64,000 nucleotides of DNA from Escherichia coli. Lineage in GTDB: Bacteria > Pseudomonadota > Gammaproteobacteria > Enterobacterales > Enterobacteriaceae. The position numbers and the translations under genes were made by a program. Where the stretch lies: NCBI RefSeq assembly GCF_044324875.1, contig NZ_CP172185.1; one strand, written 5' to 3'. Position 1 is the first letter of the stretch. Every line of letters starts with the position of its first letter. The notes beneath the pieces were generated by a model. The model was not told the origin of the DNA. It did not search any database and saw only the letters and a list, made by a program, of their open reading frames with translations. Below are positions 7,918 to 61,787 of the stretch, in pieces.

Positions 7918-8162
7918 AAGAAAAAAGGCGACAGATTACTCTGTCGCCTTTTTTCCTGACTCATAACCCTTAACGGGTCTTACAATCCTTGCAGGCCGCC
8001 AACACACCCTGTTTTTCCATTAGCCGGAACAATCCGTGTTGATTCCATTTCCGTTTAATTACGTCTCCGGACGTTTGTCTTCCTGACAATCCTCTGTCTT
8101 CGCCTCCTGGCGCTCCTGACCCTCATCCTGAGTCATTGTTCCTGTTAGCGTCCTCGCTCTAT
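7918..8162 (-). ncRNA. csrC: CsrC small RNA (CsrA-sequestering)
   Basis: Reverse complement matches remembered CsrC, with repeated GGA-containing motifs and a terminal hairpin (aggcgacag...ctgtcgcct) plus U-run; lies in the yihI-engB intergenic region as in K-12. Confidence 0.85.
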
Positions 8163-15107: not shown

Positions 15108-15134
15108 AAAAAAAGCCCGTGAATATTCACGGGC
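15108..15134 (-). terminator. Intrinsic terminator downstream of dsbA
   Basis: gcccgtgaatattcacgggc hairpin with a U-run on the minus strand. Confidence 0.6.
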
Positions 15135-15154
15135 TTTATGTAATTTACATTGAA

Positions 15155-42658: not shown

Positions 42659-43471
42659 ATGGCAACAACACAACAATCTGGATTTGCACCTGCTGCATCG
42701 CCTCTCGCTTCGACCATCGTTCAGACCCCGGACGACGCGATTGCGGCGGGCTTCACCTCTATCCCCTCACAAGGGGATAACATGCCTGCTTACCATGCCA
42801 GACCAAAGCAGAGCGATGGCCCACTGCCAGTGGTCATTGTAGTGCAGGAAATTTTTGGCGTGCATGAACATATCCGCGACATTTGTCGCCGTCTGGCGCT
42901 GGAGGGGTATCTGGCTATCGCACCTGAACTTTACTTCCGCGAAGGCGATCCGAATGATTTTGCCGATATCCCCACGTTACTTAGCGGTCTGGTAGCAAAA
43001 GTGCCTGACTCGCAGGTGCTGGCCGATCTCGATCATGTCGCCAGTTGGGCTTCCCGCAACGGCGGCGATGTACATCGTTTAATGATCACCGGATTCTGCT
43101 GGGGGGGACGTATCACCTGGCTGTATGCTGCGCATAACCCGCAACTGAAAGCGGCGGTGGCATGGTACGGCAAACTGACAGGCGATAAGTCGCTGAATTC
43201 ACCGAAACAACCTGTTGATATCGCAACCGATCTTAACGCGCCGGTTCTCGGCTTATATGGTGGTCAGGATAACAGCATTCCGCAGGAGAGCGTTGAAACC
43301 ATGCGCCAGGCGCTGCGGGCTGCTAATGCGAAAGCAGAGATTATCGTCTACCCGGATGCCGGGCATGCATTCAACGCCGATTATCGCCCGAGCTATCATG
43401 CCGAATCTGCGAAAGATGGCTGGCAGCGTATGCTGGAGTGGTTTAAGCAGTATGGTGGGAAGCGGAATTAG
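42659..43471 (+). CDS. ysgA: Putative dienelactone hydrolase family protein
   Basis: Start chosen at MATTQQSGFAPAAS (271 aa); alpha/beta hydrolase motifs (GFCWGG). Confidence 0.9.
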   Translation: MATTQQSGFAPAASPLASTIVQTPDDAIAAGFTSIPSQGDNMPAYHARPKQSDGPLPVVIVVQEIFGVHEHIRDICRRLALEGYLAIAPELYFREGDPNDFADIPTLLSGLVAKVPDSQVLADLDHVASWASRNGGDVHRLMITGFCWGGRITWLYAAHNPQLKAAVAWYGKLTGDKSLNSPKQPVDIATDLNAPVLGLYGGQDNSIPQESVETMRQALRAANAKAEIIVYPDAGHAFNADYRPSYHAESAKDGWQRMLEWFKQYGGKRN

Positions 43472-43862
43472 TTTCCTCTTAGTCTATATTTGAGATGGTG
43501 AGTGAACGAGTGCGTTTTGCTGCCATCTCTGTCCCCCAAAAAATAATCAGTATGAATTGATTGGAGAGCACGACTCCGCTATTTGACCTTAAGAAAGTCG
43601 GCAAGTAATAGTCATAAGTGAGTCTCTTCACTGGCAGACACCTTAGAGATTTACCATCAACTCCCATTCTCAAACAAACATTAATTATTATCAACACATT
43701 CACATTAATTATAAATTATCTCAGACCTTCCTGATAAAAAGATATTAAAGTGAAACATTTTGTTTTTCACATTTTAGTTCATCCCTTTTAGGCGTAAATA
43801 AAGGTAAAAAATAACAATACTATTTTTCTTTCACAAAAGAATTAACAAAAGGTTTTTCAAGG

Positions 43863-44996
43863 ATGAGTGATATTATTTACCTGAACATAACCGGAGAACA
43901 ACAAGGATGTATTTCCTCTCGTTGTGGAACGAGCGCATCAATAGGTAATCGCTGGCAGATTGGCCATGAAGATGAAATCTTCGCGTTCTCGCTCTCTAAT
44001 AGTATTACGAATACAGGCAAAGGGTCACAATTGCATGGCCTTAGTTTCTGTAAATTGATTGACAAAAGCTCCCCGTTACTTATTAACGCTATTAACAATA
44101 ACGAGCAGTTGTTCATGGAGTTTGACTTCTATCGGATCAATAGATTTGGTCGATGGGAGAAATATTACAACATTCAACTTCGCGGCGCGCTCTTATCAGC
44201 AATCAATCACCTGTTTACTGAGAACAATCTGGATACAGAAACCATCACTGTCAGTTATGAATATATACTCTCCAGGCATCTGATTGCTAATACTGAATTT
44301 AGTTATTTGGCATTTCCCGATAACTACAACCGTCTGTTTATACCACGGCCAAAAACTAAAGATGATAATGGCCTCAAAACACTCAATAGTAAAGCGGTTG
44401 GCAGACTGCTTGCTGCTGGCGGCATATACAATGGGAATATCGAAGGATTCAGGGAAACAGCAAACAAGTTGGGAGGAGATGCACCTGCTGGTTACGATCA
44501 AGTTATGGATAACAAAGGGTTACTCATCGCTGGTGCTTCAATAGTTGCTGGAGTTGTTCTGGGAAGAATGAGATTCCCTGATTTGGAATCACTTGAGCAT
44601 TTCGGAGCCAGAGGAGCAGTATCAGGAAGACCATTTAATCCCGACCTTGCCGGTGGTCCAATTGAAAACCTGACGATAGATGGCGTAACAATCAACAGGG
44701 AAGGTATCGCTATTGTTGAAAAGCATATCTCCAGATTTGATCATGATCCAGCTAATGATGTAATGATTTCAAGGCTAAAGAAAATAGCAAATAAAGAATT
44801 GCTTCCTGAAAAATACGATCTGAACTACTATACTCATGAATGTCGCGAGTATCAGCGTTATTGTAATTTAGGATGGGAAACAGGTGAACCGAAAGGTTTA
44901 GATGGATATGAATTATGGAATAATGTACATACTGCAACTCTAGAAGACTTTAAAATTAAAGATACTGACTTATTTCATCCGGATGCAAAAAAATGA
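43863..44996 (+). CDS. Hcp-domain protein with C-terminal extension (candidate Hcp-fused type VI secretion effector toxin)
   Basis: 377-aa ORF in AT-rich DNA. N-terminal ~155 aa follow the Hcp family pattern (YLNITGE...LHGLSFCKLIDKSSPLL...YYNIQL), alignable by eye with E. coli Hcp. The C-terminal ~220 aa have no family I can assign. Family call is by recall, not by search. Confidence 0.7.
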   Translation: MSDIIYLNITGEQQGCISSRCGTSASIGNRWQIGHEDEIFAFSLSNSITNTGKGSQLHGLSFCKLIDKSSPLLINAINNNEQLFMEFDFYRINRFGRWEKYYNIQLRGALLSAINHLFTENNLDTETITVSYEYILSRHLIANTEFSYLAFPDNYNRLFIPRPKTKDDNGLKTLNSKAVGRLLAAGGIYNGNIEGFRETANKLGGDAPAGYDQVMDNKGLLIAGASIVAGVVLGRMRFPDLESLEHFGARGAVSGRPFNPDLAGGPIENLTIDGVTINREGIAIVEKHISRFDHDPANDVMISRLKKIANKELLPEKYDLNYYTHECREYQRYCNLGWETGEPKGLDGYELWNNVHTATLEDFKIKDTDLFHPDAKK

Positions 44997-45250
44997 CGAT
45001 TACGATAGTTGAATTTAACGTGCTGAAAGTTATGGCTGAGAAAGATATTGACTGGAGCTGGATGGTGCTGGATCGTACTTTAGCTATACGAAATATTCCA
45101 GGATTTGGCAACGTAGCGAATATCGTAACAAAGCTGGTTAATCATGGGTTGGTTGATATCGTAAATGGTGAGGGCAACTCTAGACCACGCTACAGAGTTT
45201 CTCAATATGGATTGAATCTTATCAAAGAACAACAAGACAACCTCTTCTGA
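44993..45250 (+). CDS. Small hypothetical protein, candidate cognate immunity protein
   Basis: 85-aa ORF whose ATG overlaps the upstream stop (ATGA at 44993-44996); paralogue of the next ORF; conserved LDRTL-IR-IPGFGNV-NIV-KL--GLV block. Confidence 0.6.
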   Translation: MTITIVEFNVLKVMAEKDIDWSWMVLDRTLAIRNIPGFGNVANIVTKLVNHGLVDIVNGEGNSRPRYRVSQYGLNLIKEQQDNLF

Positions 45251-45309
45251 TCCAGCCATTACAGGAGCATGATTTACATTGTGATCTTTCAATAAGATAC
45301 TCATCAATT

Positions 45310-45570
45310 TTGGTACAGAATATCGTGATCACTAAAAATGAACTTAACGTGCTGAACGTTATGACTGAGAAAGATATAAACTGGAACTGGATGAATCTCG
45401 ATCGCACACTATCCATAAGGCAAATTCCAGGATTCGGGAATGTTGTTAACATTGTTAACAAATTAGCTAACGAAGGTTTGGTTATTATTGAGGATAGCGG
45501 GAATAAGTCTATGCCTCACTACCACGTTAGTGAAAAGGGATACAATCTCGTGCAACGTGAGAATAAATAA
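45310..45570 (+). CDS. Small hypothetical protein, paralogue of the preceding gene (candidate second or orphan immunity protein)
   Basis: 86-aa ORF with roughly 60% identity by eye to the 44993-45250 product, plus clear nucleotide similarity; track start is TTG at 45310, and an in-frame GTG at 45325 is an alternative start. Confidence 0.5.
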   Translation: MVQNIVITKNELNVLNVMTEKDINWNWMNLDRTLSIRQIPGFGNVVNIVNKLANEGLVIIEDSGNKSMPHYHVSEKGYNLVQRENK

Positions 45571-45676
45571 CGTAGCGTTGATTACTGAACGGAATCACTC
45601 AAAACTGTGTTTTGCGAAAAAAACGATTCGGTTATTTCTGCTCCTGAAGATCAGCTTCAATCTGGCACTCATGCAA

Positions 45677-45702
45677 AATGGCTTCCAGTGCTGGAAGCCA
45701 TT
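45677..45702. repeat. 26-bp near-perfect palindrome between the insertion and the metE 3' end
   Basis: aatggcttccag tg ctggaagccatt; possible bidirectional terminator. Confidence 0.5.
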
Positions 45703-45738
45703 ATCGTACTGCAATTTACAGTGACTCGTTAATATTCG

Positions 45739-48000
45739 TCATCCCCGACGCAAATTCTGCGCCGCCTGCACCATGTTCGCCAGTGCCGCGCGGGTTTCTG
45801 GCCAGCCGCGCGTTTTCAGGCCACAGTCCGGGTTGACCCACAGACGCTCTGCCGGAATGCGTTTTGCCGCTTTCTTCAGCAAGGCTTCAATCCATTCCAC
45901 GCTCGGTACGTTTGGCGAGTGAATGTCATAGACGCCAGGACCGATTTCATTTGGATAATCAAACTCTTCAAACGACTCCAGCAACTCCATGTCGGAACGC
46001 GAGGTTTCGATGGTGATGACGTCTGCGTCCAGCGCCGCAATCGAATCCATGATGTCGTTGAACTCGCAGTAACACATGTGAGTGTGGATTTGTGTGTCAT
46101 CTTTCGCCACGGCGGCGTTGATACGGAAAGCCTCCACGCCCCACTGGAGATAGGCATCCCAGTCGCCGCGACGCAGCGGTAAACCTTCGCGCAGTGCCGG
46201 TTCATCAATCTGGATGATGCCAATTCCAGCGGCTTCCAGGTCCGCCACTTCATCACGCAGCGCCAGCGCAATTTGTTTGGCGATGGTTTCACGGCTGACA
46301 TCTTCACGCGGGAACGACCAGCAGAGAATGGTCACCGGGCCGGTCAGCATCCCTTTCACCGGTTTGTCAGTCAGCGATTGCGCATACTTCGCCCACTCAA
46401 TGGTAATCGGTGCCGGGCGGCTAACGTCACCAATGACAATCGGCGGCTTCACGCAGCGGGAACCGTAGCTCTGTACCCAACCGTTTTGCGTAAAGACAAA
46501 ACCGTCGAGATGCTCGCCAAAGTATTCCACCATGTCATTACGCTCGGCCTCGCCATGCACCAGCACATCCAGACCTAAACGTTCCTGCTCAACAATGGCC
46601 TGCTTGATATGTTCCGCAATGCCCGTGCGGTAGTTGTTGGCGTCGAGATTACCCTTTTTGAAATCCAGACGCAGGGTACGAATTTCCGTGGTTTGCGGGA
46701 AGGAACCAATCGTGGTGGTCGGCCACGCGGGCAGTTTAAAACGCGCACGCTGGGCTTCAGCACGCACTTCATAGACATTCGCACGCTGACTGTCCTGAGC
46801 GGTGATCGCCGCCAGACGCTTTTCTACTGCCGGATTATGTACGCGGGTTGAGTGACGACGCGCCTGAATCGGAGCGCTCCACTCTGCCAGAGCAGCCGTG
46901 TCACCACTGTTCAGCGCATCGCGCAGCAGTGCCAGTTCATGACATTTTTGCAGGGCGAAGGCAAACCAGCTTTTCACTTCTGCATCAAGACGCGTTTCCA
47001 CGCTCAGGTCGATGGGGCTGTGCAGCAGTGAGCAGGAAGATGCCACCCACAAATCGCGTTTGCCGACAATGTCCTTAATTTGCGCATACTTCTCGGTAAG
47101 ATCGGCGCGCCAGACGTTACGACCATTGATCAGACCCGCAGACAGCAGCCAGTCAGAAGGCAGACGCTTGTGCAGTTCAGCAACGTCATCTTTACCATGT
47201 ACAAGATCGACATGCAGACCCTGAACAGGCAGCGCAGTAATCGTGTCGAGATTTGGCGTTACGCCTTCAAAATAGGTGGTCAGCAGCAGTTTCACCTGTC
47301 CCTGGAGCGCGTCGTAAGCGGGTTTGTATGCGTCCAGCCACGCCTGCGGTAGTTCCAGTACCAGCGCTGGTTCGTCGATCTGTACCCACTCAATACCGCG
47401 TTTTGCCAGTTCTGCCAGCACTTGCTGATAAATCGGAAGAATGTCGTTCAGCAGGCTCAGGCGATCAAACTGTTCACCTTTCACTTTACCCAGCCACAGG
47501 TAGGTAACCGGCCCCAGCAGCACAGGTTTCACCTTGTGGCCCAGCGCCAGCGCCTCGTCCACTTCCTCCAGCAGCTGCGTCCAGGTCAGTTTGAACTGTT
47601 GGCCTTTAACGAACTCCGGCACCATGTAGTGATAGTTGGTGTTAAACCATTTGGTCATTTCCGCTGCCGCCGCAGGTTCACCAGTCGGCGCACGTCCACG
47701 ACCAATACGGAACAGGGTGTCGATATCTACCGAACCATCTTTGTTCTGATGACGTGGCGGAACATTACCCAGCAGCAGACTGGTGGTCAGTACATGATCG
47801 TACCAGGCAAAATCGCCCACCGGCAGCAGGTCGATACCCGCCTGCTTTTGTTGATCCCAGTGACGGGCACGTAATTCACGCCCAACCGCCAGCAGTTCTT
47901 CACGCGTGGAGTTCCCCGCCCAATAACTTTCTTGCGCTTTTTTCAGCTCGCGACGCAGGCCAACGCGAGGGAAACCGAGGGTGTGATTCAATATTGTCAT
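45739..48000 (-). CDS. metE: Cobalamin-independent methionine synthase
   Basis: 753-aa [32 protein letters not shown]... Confidence 0.97.
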
Positions 48001-48235
48001 TTTTCTTCCTCTAATTATATGTAAATCCTATGGATTTTGAATTTAGGGAAGGCGGCAAGTTTATTCATCCCCGGGAGCTTACTGAAGTAAGTGACCGGGG
48101 TGAAGAAACGCAGCCAACGCACCATAAATTTAAAAGACGAAGGATTTTAGCCGTCCAGATGTTTACACATCCATAATTGGCGGTTACTGTATATTCCTCA
48201 AGCGCAAATTATTCATGCCGAAGTGAAGGACTTTC
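48001..48235. promoter_or_regulatory. Divergent metE/metR control region (expected MetR and MetJ sites)
   Basis: Intergenic region between divergent metE and metR; met-box-like agacg/gtccagatgtttacacatcc sequences; sites not mapped precisely. Confidence 0.4.
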
Positions 48236-49189
48236 ATGATCGAAGTAAAACATCTGAAAACGCTACAAGCGTTGCGGAACTGCGGCTCGCTCGCAGCCGC
48301 TGCGGCGACGTTGCATCAGACGCAATCCGCCCTGTCTCACCAGTTTAGCGATCTGGAACAACGCCTTGGCTTCCGGCTATTTGTGCGTAAGAGCCAGCCG
48401 CTTCGCTTTACACCGCAGGGAGAAATCCTGTTGCAACTGGCAAATCAGGTGCTGCCGCAAATCAGCCAGGCACTGCAAGCCTGCAATGAACCGCAGCAGA
48501 CGCGTCTGCGCATTGCCATCGAGTGCCATAGCTGTATTCAGTGGCTGACGCCCGCGTTAGAAAATTTCCATAAGAACTGGCCGCAGGTCGAGATGGACTT
48601 TAAATCGGGCGTGACGTTTGACCCGCAGCCTGCGTTGCAACAGGGCGAGCTGGATCTGGTGATGACGTCAGATATTCTGCCGCGCAGTGGCCTGCATTAT
48701 TCGCCGATGTTCGATTATGAAGTGCGTCTGGTGTTGGCACCTGACCATCCGCTGGCGGCGAAAACGCGTATTACACCGGAAGATCTCGCCAGCGAGACGC
48801 TGTTGATTTATCCGGTGCAGCGTAGTCGACTGGATGTCTGGCGGCATTTTCTTCAGCCAGCAGGCGTCAGCCCGTCACTGAAAAGCGTCGATAACACCTT
48901 ATTGTTGATTCAGATGGTTGCCGCGCGGATGGGTATTGCCGCACTACCGCATTGGGTGGTGGAGAGTTTTGAACGCCAGGGTCTGGTGGTGACCAAAACC
49001 CTGGGCGAAGGCTTGTGGAGCCGACTGTACGCCGCCGTGCGCGATGGCGAGCAGCGTCAGCCGATTACAGAAGCGTTTATTCGCTCAGCGCGCAATCACG
49101 CCTGCGATCATCTGCCGTTTGTGAAGAGCGCGGAGCGACCCACTTACGATGCACCCACAGTGAGGCCAGGATCACCAGCGCGCCTGTAA
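48236..49189 (+). CDS. metR: LysR-family transcriptional activator MetR
   Basis: 317-aa ORF with N-terminal HTH ([24 protein letters not shown]). Confidence 0.96.
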
Positions 49190-58633: not shown

Positions 58634-58640
58634 ATAACAG

Positions 58641-58678
58641 GTGGCTTAGCCAGGCTAAGCCACCGCTCTCGTTTTTTA
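58641..58678 (+). terminator. Intrinsic terminator after yigF
   Basis: ggtggcttagcc / ggctaagccacc hairpin followed by gctctcgtttttt. Confidence 0.6.
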
Positions 58679-61745: not shown

Positions 61746-61756
61746 GGTGCTGATGC

Positions 61757-61787
61757 GGGATGCGGTGTGGCGCACCGCATCCCGCAA
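61757..61787. repeat. REP-like palindrome / bidirectional terminator
   Basis: gcgggatgcggtg tggcg caccgcatcccgc between the convergent DUF62 gene and uvrD. Confidence 0.6.

What the first reader, a model, noticed from the sequence alone, without database searches (positions are those of the whole stretch)
45677..45702. Near-perfect 26-bp palindrome at the right edge of the insertion
aatggcttccag tg ctggaagccatt lies between the second small gene and the convergent metE stop. It could be a bidirectional terminator separating the island from metE, or a native feature of the metE 3' region; which one bears on where the insertion junction is.
Basis: seen in the sequence. Interest (0 to 1): 0.3.

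Follow-up and report, generated by a model that had tools for sequence, protein, structure and literature searches.

The report
Terminator hairpin at island–metE boundary
The palindrome is real and most likely an ordinary transcription-terminator hairpin for metE, carried on the foreign-DNA side of a known E. coli genomic island that replaced the native K-12 terminator.

Summary
The 12+2+12 palindrome at 45677-45702 is real and not chance. It is not a native K-12 feature. In K-12 the ysgA-metE gap is 39 bp and holds a different hairpin (CCGGGTGGT-ATT-ACCACCCGG). E. albertii has that K-12-type hairpin, so it is probably ancestral.

The palindrome lies in a 104-bp block (45635-45738) that abuts metE in 1212 of 5426 complete E. 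coli genomes. The K-12-type junction is in 4209; the two alleles are mutually exclusive. The island/backbone junction is at the metE stop codon (TGA with the block, TAA in K-12), 36 bp right of the palindrome.

The block persists whatever lies to its left: the 2.3-kb Hcp-toxin/immunity module here, the 16-kb tkt1 island of strain 536, or the BL21 deletion derivative.

Across seven diverged haplotypes the 9-bp stem and the metE-sense tail (UUUUGC) never vary (0/23 columns against 34/80 elsewhere). The loop varies, and the + strand tail is U-poor and variable.

Best reading: a Rho-independent terminator mainly for metE, brought in with the island; only weakly bidirectional. No 3'-end data were available. 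Ordinary; low interest.

The parts
45677..45702 (.). 26-bp palindrome (12+2+12). RNA hairpin of 11 bp with a 4-nt loop. The invariant core stem is ATGGCTTCC/GGAAGCCAT; the central 6 nt vary between alleles.
45673..45678 (-). metE-sense tail: + strand gcaaaa, which reads UUUUGC on the - strand immediately 3' of the stem. Two of the U lie within the outer A-U pairs. Invariant in all haplotypes. metE transcript 3' ends are predicted at about 45672-45676.
   Evidence: 3'-end position is inference
45635..45738 (.). 104-bp block shared by all non-K-12 alleles and always abutting metE. GC 43%. Its left edge is the deletion endpoint in BL21-type genomes.
45708..45722 (-). Small second hairpin (ACUGUAAAUUGCAGU in metE sense) between the metE stop and the palindrome. 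Weakened in the BL21 allele; function not claimed.
45739..45741 (-). metE stop codon: TGA in every allele with the block, TAA in K-12 and E. albertii. Homology to K-12 starts here, so this is the right junction of the island.
45739..48000 (-). metE (753 aa), convergent with the island genes.
43458..45741 (.). Island-side DNA replacing about 52 bp of the K-12-type sequence (last ysgA codons, native terminator hairpin, metE stop). GC 38.5% against 54-56% in ysgA and metE. No terminal direct or inverted repeats.
43863..44996 (+). tssD / Hcp with a C-terminal extension (377 aa; Hcp domain in the N-terminal ~140 aa, rest without a family match).
44993..45250 (+). First small gene (85 aa), presumed immunity protein.
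45325..45570 (+). Second small gene (81 aa), 60% identical to the first. It ends 106 nt before the palindrome.
42659..43471 (+). ysgA. Its last codons (..GKRN*) differ from K-12 and E. albertii (..GKKSL*), which marks the left junction at about 43458-43463.

Best explanation
The palindrome encodes a Rho-independent (intrinsic) terminator hairpin that ends metE transcripts in E. coli strains carrying island DNA between ysgA and metE. It is not the ancestral metE terminator. The ancestral one is the CCGGGTGG...CCACCCGG hairpin still present in K-12 and E. albertii. That hairpin was lost when about 52 bp (the ysgA tail, the hairpin and the metE stop codon) were replaced by foreign, low-GC DNA. 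The right-most 104 bp of that DNA supply metE with a new stop codon (TGA), a 36-nt spacer and this hairpin followed by UUUUGC. Proposed mechanism (inferred): RNA polymerase leaving metE transcribes the stem-loop, pauses on the U-run and releases at about 45672-45676. This would keep the strongly expressed metE transcript from running antisense into the convergent immunity and Hcp-toxin genes. It may also help to stop + strand transcripts, by hairpin pausing or polymerase collision, but the sequence is not built symmetrically for that. Shown here: presence, position, fold, allele distribution, junctions and the conservation pattern. Inferred: actual termination.
For: 1. Not native: K-12 has a 39-bp ysgA-metE gap with another hairpin and no palindrome.
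2. Ancestral state: E. albertii has the K-12-type hairpin and the K-12-type ysgA end. None of 80 Enterobacterales metE loci has the palindrome except the E. coli representative.
3. Census: the K-12-type junction is in 4209 of 5426 genomes and the block in 1212, always one copy and always at metE.
4. The block stays attached to metE under three different left-hand neighbours. These are the Hcp module here, the 16-kb composite island in strain 536, and BL21, where a clean 7.5-kb deletion ends at the block's left edge.
5. Conservation: in seven haplotypes retrieved without using the stem as a search pattern, 0 of 23 stem-plus-tail columns vary against 34 of 80 elsewhere (one-sided Fisher p = 2e-5; similar). 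Half of the loop columns vary (AGCACT, AGTACT, AACACC, ATCACC).
6. Strand asymmetry: the metE-sense tail UUUUGC is invariant, while the + sense tail is U-poor and differs between alleles. The one stem change (outer A to G) keeps a G-U pair only in the metE-sense RNA.
7. The hairpin is in the MFE fold 36 nt after the stop codon.
8. The same stem, flanked by A-runs and T-runs, occurs in unrelated metagenomic organisms as a typical terminator design.
Against: The U-run is short (4 U, then GCAU), and the consensus terminator scan called nothing in 44800-46000. A crude hairpin/U-tract score is lower than for the native K-12 hairpin. That score used a formula recalled from memory, and the rrnB T1 reference also scored low, so only the ranking means anything. 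There is no covariation: nine of the 11 stem pairs never vary, so the alignment shows conservation but not RNA pairing as such. There are no RNA 3'-end data for any strain with this allele. In 114 genomes a 131-bp repeat element sits between metE and the hairpin, moving it about 170 nt from the stop codon. The ancestral-state argument rests on a single outgroup species.
Confidence: 0.68

Rival explanations
1. It is a truly bidirectional terminator, or mainly the terminator of the Hcp-toxin/immunity operon on the + strand. In that case it stops both convergent transcription units at one hairpin, as described for convergent gene pairs in E. coli.
For: It lies between convergent genes, 106 nt after the last island gene. 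The hairpin forms equally well on the + strand. The + strand has an A-run 5' of the stem, as symmetric terminators do. Published work reports bidirectional terminators between convergent pairs that need a stem-loop and rely on polymerase collisions rather than a canonical U-tract (10.1101/2022.10.23.513370).
Against: The + sense tail (AUUAUCGU; CAUCGUAC; CAGAUUAU in repeat-interrupted alleles) is U-poor and not conserved. It scores lowest in every allele. Homologous Hcp/immunity cassettes in Citrobacter do not carry this block. The outer-pair change would give an A-C mismatch in + sense RNA.
Confidence: 0.22
2. It is a native, ancestral feature of the metE 3' region that K-12-type strains lost.
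For: It is always next to metE and persists under different left-hand neighbours. Its origin outside E. coli was not found.
Against: E. albertii shares the K-12-type hairpin, ysgA tail and TAA stop. No other Enterobacterales metE locus sampled has the block. The block has island-like GC, 43% against 56% in metE. 78% of E. coli genomes have the K-12 type.
Confidence: 0.05
3. It is a DNA site, either a dimeric regulator's operator or a recombination/attachment site used for island insertion or cassette exchange.
For: Two invariant 9-10-bp half-sites separated by a variable 6-bp centre is also the pattern of a dimer-binding site. A dispersed repeat element inserted exactly at its right edge in 114 genomes.
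Against: There is no integrase, transposase or terminal repeat in the island (PMC3349570). There is one copy per genome and none on plasmids or phages. It lies downstream of both convergent genes, not at a promoter. The island junction is 36 bp away, at the stop codon. The adjacent metE-sense U-run is conserved as well, which a DNA site does not explain.
Confidence: 0.04
4. It lies inside a small protein-coding gene or gene remnant on the + strand (the frame reading ..AKWLPVLEAI..).
For: A 41-codon ORF (45607-45732) spans it. The annotation pipeline calls a 40-aa hypothetical protein across it in the O145 allele. The loop differences are synonymous or Leu-to-Met in that frame (reading).
Against: The frame is broken and stopped in the BL21 allele. 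Comparison of the window with strain 536 shows 3 non-synonymous changes to 1 synonymous. There is no convincing start signal. A full HMMER scan of 1.84 billion proteins found only the ORF itself and two spurious repeat proteins. It is not annotated in strains 7/2 or 536.
Confidence: 0.02

Closest known systems
Rho-independent (intrinsic) terminators of E. coli
   Same: A GC-containing stem-loop (9-11 bp, 4-6-nt loop, about -12 to -16 kcal/mol) followed directly by a U-run. It lies a few tens of nt after a stop codon. Stem and U-run are conserved while the loop is free to vary.
   Different: The U-run is only 4 long and interrupted (UUUUGCAU). It fails a simple >=5-T-in-8 scan. Termination has not been measured.
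Native ysgA/metE bidirectional terminator of K-12 (aaaagaCCGGGTGGTattACCACCCGGttt)
   Same: Same genomic role and place: the single hairpin between convergent ysgA-side genes and metE.
   Different: The sequences are unrelated. The K-12 hairpin has U-runs on both strands and scores higher in both directions. It is the ancestral allele, shared with E. albertii.
Bidirectional terminators between convergent gene pairs (Ju et al. 2019, as cited in 10.1101/2022.10.23.513370)
   Same: A stem-loop element between convergent, potentially colliding transcription units.
   Different: Here one side carries a conserved canonical U-run and the other does not. No SEnd-seq data exist for this allele.
tkt1 genomic island between metE and ysgA (APEC O1 / B2 ExPEC; PMC3349570) and Hcp-ET effector-immunity modules (reviewed in PMC6730261)
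   Same: Same insertion locus. The 536-type 16-kb island contains the same tssD plus two small genes plus the block. No flanking repeats or mobility genes were reported.
   Different: The window carries only the 2.3-kb Hcp module. A term search of the island paper found no mention of a terminator; its text on the right-end block was not read in full.
REP/BIME dispersed palindromic elements
   Same: An extragenic palindrome at a gene's 3' end.
   Different: Single copy per genome and no REP consensus. A genuine dispersed repeat of that kind (>=38 places per genome) is inserted next to it in some strains.

Membership tests
Intrinsic (Rho-independent) terminator | Stable GC-containing RNA stem-loop | tested here: met
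   11-bp stem with a 4-nt loop in the MFE fold of the metE-sense RNA. -16.0 kcal/mol for the 26-mer. The 9-bp core is invariant in all haplotypes.
Intrinsic (Rho-independent) terminator | U-rich tract immediately 3' of the stem | tested here: inconclusive
   The metE-sense tail is UUUUGCAU: 4 U, invariant. The consensus scan requiring 5 T in 8 after the maximal stem found nothing, and the crude score is below the K-12 native hairpin.
Intrinsic (Rho-independent) terminator | Location shortly downstream of a stop codon, in the sense of that gene | tested here: met
   The stem starts 36 nt after the metE TGA.
Intrinsic (Rho-independent) terminator | Transcript 3' ends map to the U-tract; termination in vitro or in vivo | not testable with these tools
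   No RNA 3'-end data are available here.
Bidirectional terminator of a convergent gene pair | Sits between convergent genes | tested here: met
   The second small gene ends at 45570 (+) and metE ends at 45739 (-).
Bidirectional terminator of a convergent gene pair | Symmetric design: A-run 5' and U-run 3' on both strands | tested here: not met
   The + sense tail AUUAUCGUACUG is U-poor and varies between alleles.
Native K-12 metE 3' region | Same sequence present downstream of metE in K-12 | tested here: not met
   The K-12 gap is 39 bp with an unrelated hairpin, and homology breaks at the stop codon. 4209 genomes have the K-12 type.
REP/BIME or other dispersed repeat | Many copies per genome | tested here: not met
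   Exactly one place per genome in 1212 genomes. No Rfam family match.
Island attachment site / terminal repeat | Repeat of the sequence at the other island end, or an associated recombinase | tested here: not met
   No terminal direct or inverted repeats. No recombinase is annotated. The literature reports none (PMC3349570).
Mobile-element-borne sequence (plasmid/phage) | Homologous DNA on plasmids or phages | tested here: not met
   No match in 72,556 plasmid or 50,697 phage records.

The most novel reading that the evidence does not exclude
The 104-bp block could be more than a terminator. It could be a selected 'anchor' that survives every turnover of the ysgA-metE hot spot because it supplies metE's stop codon and 3' end. 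Its hairpin plus U-run could then define a strain-specific metE 3'-UTR-derived small RNA, or an insulator protecting the immunity genes from antisense metE read-through. On that reading about 22% of E. coli would process or regulate metE mRNA differently from K-12.
Probability: 0.07. Interest if true: 0.4.

Novelty: new member of a known kind. Interest (0 to 1): 0.12.

Why it matters
The finding fixes the right junction of the ysgA-metE island at the metE stop codon. It shows that the island displaced the native bidirectional terminator and brought its own. This is a small, tidy example of how inserted DNA must restore 3'-end signals for a highly expressed neighbour. It helps annotation (the ORFs across the hairpin are probably spurious) and helps anyone engineering or comparing metE expression in BL21 or ExPEC strains against K-12. 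It does not open a new question.

Tried and rejected
- Rfam scan of 43300-48400 at a permissive threshold: nothing at the palindrome.
- Consensus terminator scan: no call.
- Covariation test: uninformative, because nine of the 11 stem pairs never vary.
- Hairpin/U-tract discriminant score from a remembered formula: the absolute threshold is unusable, since rrnB T1 also scored negative. Only the ranking was kept.
- Origin of the block as the 3' end of the BL21 LysR gene: rejected. The BL21 LysR is truncated (298 aa..IFCS*) relative to its family (301-302 aa). The junction is a deletion endpoint of a 536-type island.
- Block as an integral part of the mobile Hcp/immunity cassette: not supported. 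Citrobacter and Mangrovibacter homologues lack it.
- Plasmid and phage origin: no match.
- Small ORF or gene remnant across the palindrome: only self and spurious repeat-protein hits.
- Terminal repeats of the island: none.
- One literature search was wasted on over-broad terms.
- Sigma-54 promoter and LysR-type operator readings were considered by eye and dropped, because the spacing is wrong and the site is downstream of both genes.

Full report
**Observation.**
The sequence at 45677-45702 reads aatggcttccag-tg-ctggaagccatt. The repeat finder reports 12-nt arms, 100% complementary, 2 nt apart. On either strand the RNA folds into an 11-bp stem with a 4-nt loop inside the minimum-free-energy structure of the surrounding 91 nt. 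The 26-mer alone gives -16.0 kcal/mol. Simulated 64-kb sequences with the window's dinucleotide statistics contain on average 0.07 perfect inverted repeats with arms >=12 nt and spacer <=12. The window has five such loci.

**Context.**
An identical region in E. coli strain 7/2 is annotated as follows:
- ysgA (window 42659-43471, +)
- tssD (43863-44996, +)
- two small hypothetical genes (44993-45250 and 45325-45570, +)
- convergent metE (45739-48000, -)

The tssD product is an Hcp with a roughly 240-aa C-terminal extension that matches no family. The two small proteins are 60% identical. This is the architecture of an Hcp-ET effector with duplicated immunity genes, as reviewed in PMC6730261. 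GC content is 38.5% for 43472-45738, against 54-56% in ysgA and metE.

It is not. In MG1655 the stop codons of ysgA and metE are 39 bp apart. The gap holds a different hairpin, aaaagaCCGGGTGGTattACCACCCGGttt, with U-runs on both strands.

Homology between the window and K-12 ends at two points:
- On the right, at the metE stop codon (TGA here, TAA in K-12).
- On the left, inside the last codons of ysgA (..GKRN* here..GKKSL* in K-12).

So about 52 bp of K-12-type sequence, including the native terminator, are replaced by about 2.28 kb here. The right junction lies 36 bp to the right of the palindrome, which is therefore on the island side.

**Which state is ancestral?**
I fetched 80 metE loci from other species. 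Only the E. coli representative has the palindrome. E. albertii has the K-12-type hairpin next to metE's TAA and the K-12-type ysgA tail; in that species two copies of the hairpin flank a repeat element. Citrobacter, Enterobacter, Kluyvera and the other genera sampled have other hairpins or REP-like elements. The K-12-type terminator is therefore the older state in Escherichia. This rests on one outgroup species.

**Census in complete E. coli genomes.**
- K-12-type compact junction: 4209 of 5426 genomes.
- Palindrome block: 1212 of 5426, always one place per genome, always chromosomal and always at metE.
- The two counts sum to 5421, so these are two mutually exclusive alleles.
- Of the 1212, 734 also match the upstream immunity-gene end.
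- About 360 have a LysR-family gene next to the block, as in BL21(DE3).
- 114 have a 131-132-bp insertion directly after the right arm. That insertion is a member of a dispersed repeat with at least 38 places per genome.

**What is shared.**
Local alignment of the window with BL21 places the start of homology at 45635. The shared unit is a 104-bp block, 45635-45738, plus the TGA stop.

Strain 536 carries the full 16-kb island between ysgA and metE. Its order is: metabolic genes, LysR, RpiR, tkt, ptsG, hxlB, tssD, two small genes, block. This is the published tkt1 island, for which no flanking repeats or mobility genes were reported (PMC3349570).

BL21 equals the 536 arrangement minus a clean 7.5-kb deletion. 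The deletion runs from 22 nt before the LysR stop to the left edge of the block. This explains why the BL21 LysR protein is 298 aa and ends ..IFCS*, while its relatives are 301-302 aa. The window shares 43673-45858 with strain 536 and has a private 215 bp at the left end.

The block is thus the constant right end of all island variants. It is absent from homologous Hcp/immunity cassettes in Citrobacter, which sit next to ggt, and in Mangrovibacter. It is also absent from plasmid and phage collections. Its donor is unknown.

**Conservation pattern.**
Seven haplotypes were retrieved by BLAST, not by a stem pattern: the window, two further Hcp-type strains, 536, BL21, O145 and N96.
- None of the 23 columns making up the 9-bp stem arms and the adjacent GCAAA varies. 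On the metE strand those positions read UUUGC after the stem.
- Elsewhere in the block 34 of 80 columns vary (one-sided Fisher p = 2e-5).
- A second alignment that includes metagenomic haplotypes gives 0/23 against 35/85. Three of those rows were found with a pattern that fixes the stem, so the stem part of that count is partly by construction.
- The six central bases vary: AGCACT, AGTACT, AACACC and ATCACC in metE sense. In strain 536 the palindrome is perfect.
- There is no compensatory change. Nine pairs never vary, the innermost pair is lost in three alleles, and the outermost changes from A-U to G-U. That change is a wobble pair only in the metE-sense RNA.
- The tail on the other side, which would serve + strand transcripts, is U-poor and differs between alleles: UAUCGUAC, UAUUGUGC, CAUCGUAC, CAGAUUAU.

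**Interpretation.**
An invariant stem, a free loop and an invariant U-run on one side, 36 nt after a stop codon, is the signature of an intrinsic terminator serving metE.

A metagenome scan for the stem found the same stem in many unrelated organisms, flanked by A-runs and T-runs. This shows it is a generic terminator-type hairpin rather than a specific protein site. All E. coli-like hits were next to metE.

From general knowledge, metE is among the most strongly expressed E. coli genes when methionine and B12 are absent. A terminator in front of convergent immunity genes therefore has an obvious value. That the BL21 deletion stopped 42 nt short of the hairpin fits this, but it is only a single event.

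**Weaknesses.**
- The U-run has only four U.
- The consensus scan did not call it.
- A crude score ranks it below the native K-12 hairpin in both directions, though metE sense scores better than + sense in every allele.
- No transcript 3'-end data exist for this allele.
- A contribution to stopping + strand transcription cannot be excluded. Stem-loop elements between convergent genes are reported to terminate through polymerase collisions without canonical U-tracts (10.1101/2022.10.23.513370).

**Rejected readings.**
- Native K-12 feature: rejected.
- Dispersed repeat: rejected, single copy and no Rfam match.
- Attachment site: no terminal repeats and no recombinase.
- Coding: the 41-codon ORF across it is frame-broken in BL21. 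Its substitutions between the window and 536 are mostly non-synonymous. It has no homologues beyond itself among 1.84 billion proteins.

**Verdict.**
The palindrome is real. It belongs to the island side of a known ysgA-metE island, whose right junction is the metE stop codon. It is most likely the replacement terminator for metE, and only weakly bidirectional. It is an ordinary feature: a new, unannotated member of a very well-known kind.

Noticed in passing
window 48026-48144 (metE-metR intergenic region): A ~118-bp dispersed repeat with an ERIC/IRU-like core (ccccgggagcttactgaagtaagtgaccggggtgaa; the ERIC label is from memory) sits in the metE leader here and in K-12. It is absent at this site in strains 7/2 and 536, whose intergenic region is 117 bp instead of 235. 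It is multi-copy in E. coli (median 3 places per genome, up to 9). The weak Rfam V_AS5 hit (28.7 bits, gathering score 96) is probably this repeat.
   Followed up: partly
L004 4869-4999, L005 and L007 (O145-type alleles); equivalent to insertion at window 45702: A 131-132-bp BIME-type element (REP, IHF-like site, REP) is inserted exactly at the 3' base of the palindrome's right arm in 114 genomes. The element has at least 38 places per genome. An annotated 40-aa 'hypothetical protein' there reads through the palindrome into the repeat and is probably spurious.
   Followed up: partly
L008 (E. albertii), ysgA-metE intergenic region: A related BIME lies between two copies of the K-12-type terminator hairpin (CGGGTGGCGTTGCCACCCG ... 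CGGGTGGTGTTACCACCCGG). It looks as if the hairpin was duplicated on either side of the repeat. In both species the repeat begins CAGATT immediately after a hairpin.
   Followed up: no
window 43863-45570: The Hcp-ET effector's ~240-aa C-terminal domain matches no Pfam or NCBIfam family. Its two immunity-like genes (60% identical) are labelled 'MarR family' in Citrobacter records. Related cassettes form arrays next to ggt in Citrobacter koseri and C. freundii. In Mangrovibacter a 342-aa non-Hcp protein with a related C-terminus sits with one on a TraI-bearing element.
   Followed up: partly
window 43458-43672 and 43492-43529: The left end of the island has 215 bp shared with O145-type alleles but not with strain 536. 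It contains a hairpin (GAGAUGG...CCAUCUC) just after the new ysgA stop, with no U-run. What terminates ysgA in island-bearing strains is unclear.
   Followed up: no
L001 / L184 (BL21(DE3) vs 536): The BL21 ysgA-metE island is the 536-type 16-kb tkt1 island minus a clean 7.5-kb deletion (rpiR, tkt, ptsG, hxlB, tssD and both small genes). The deletion truncates the LysR-family gene by about 7 codons and fuses it to the block.
   Followed up: yes
window 7920-7955, 15112-15137, 58640-58664, 61754-61786: Four other perfect inverted repeats with arms >=12 nt. The one at 7920 (GAAAAAAGGCGACAGA/TCTGTCGCCTTTTTTC) looks like a classic symmetric bidirectional terminator.
   Followed up: no
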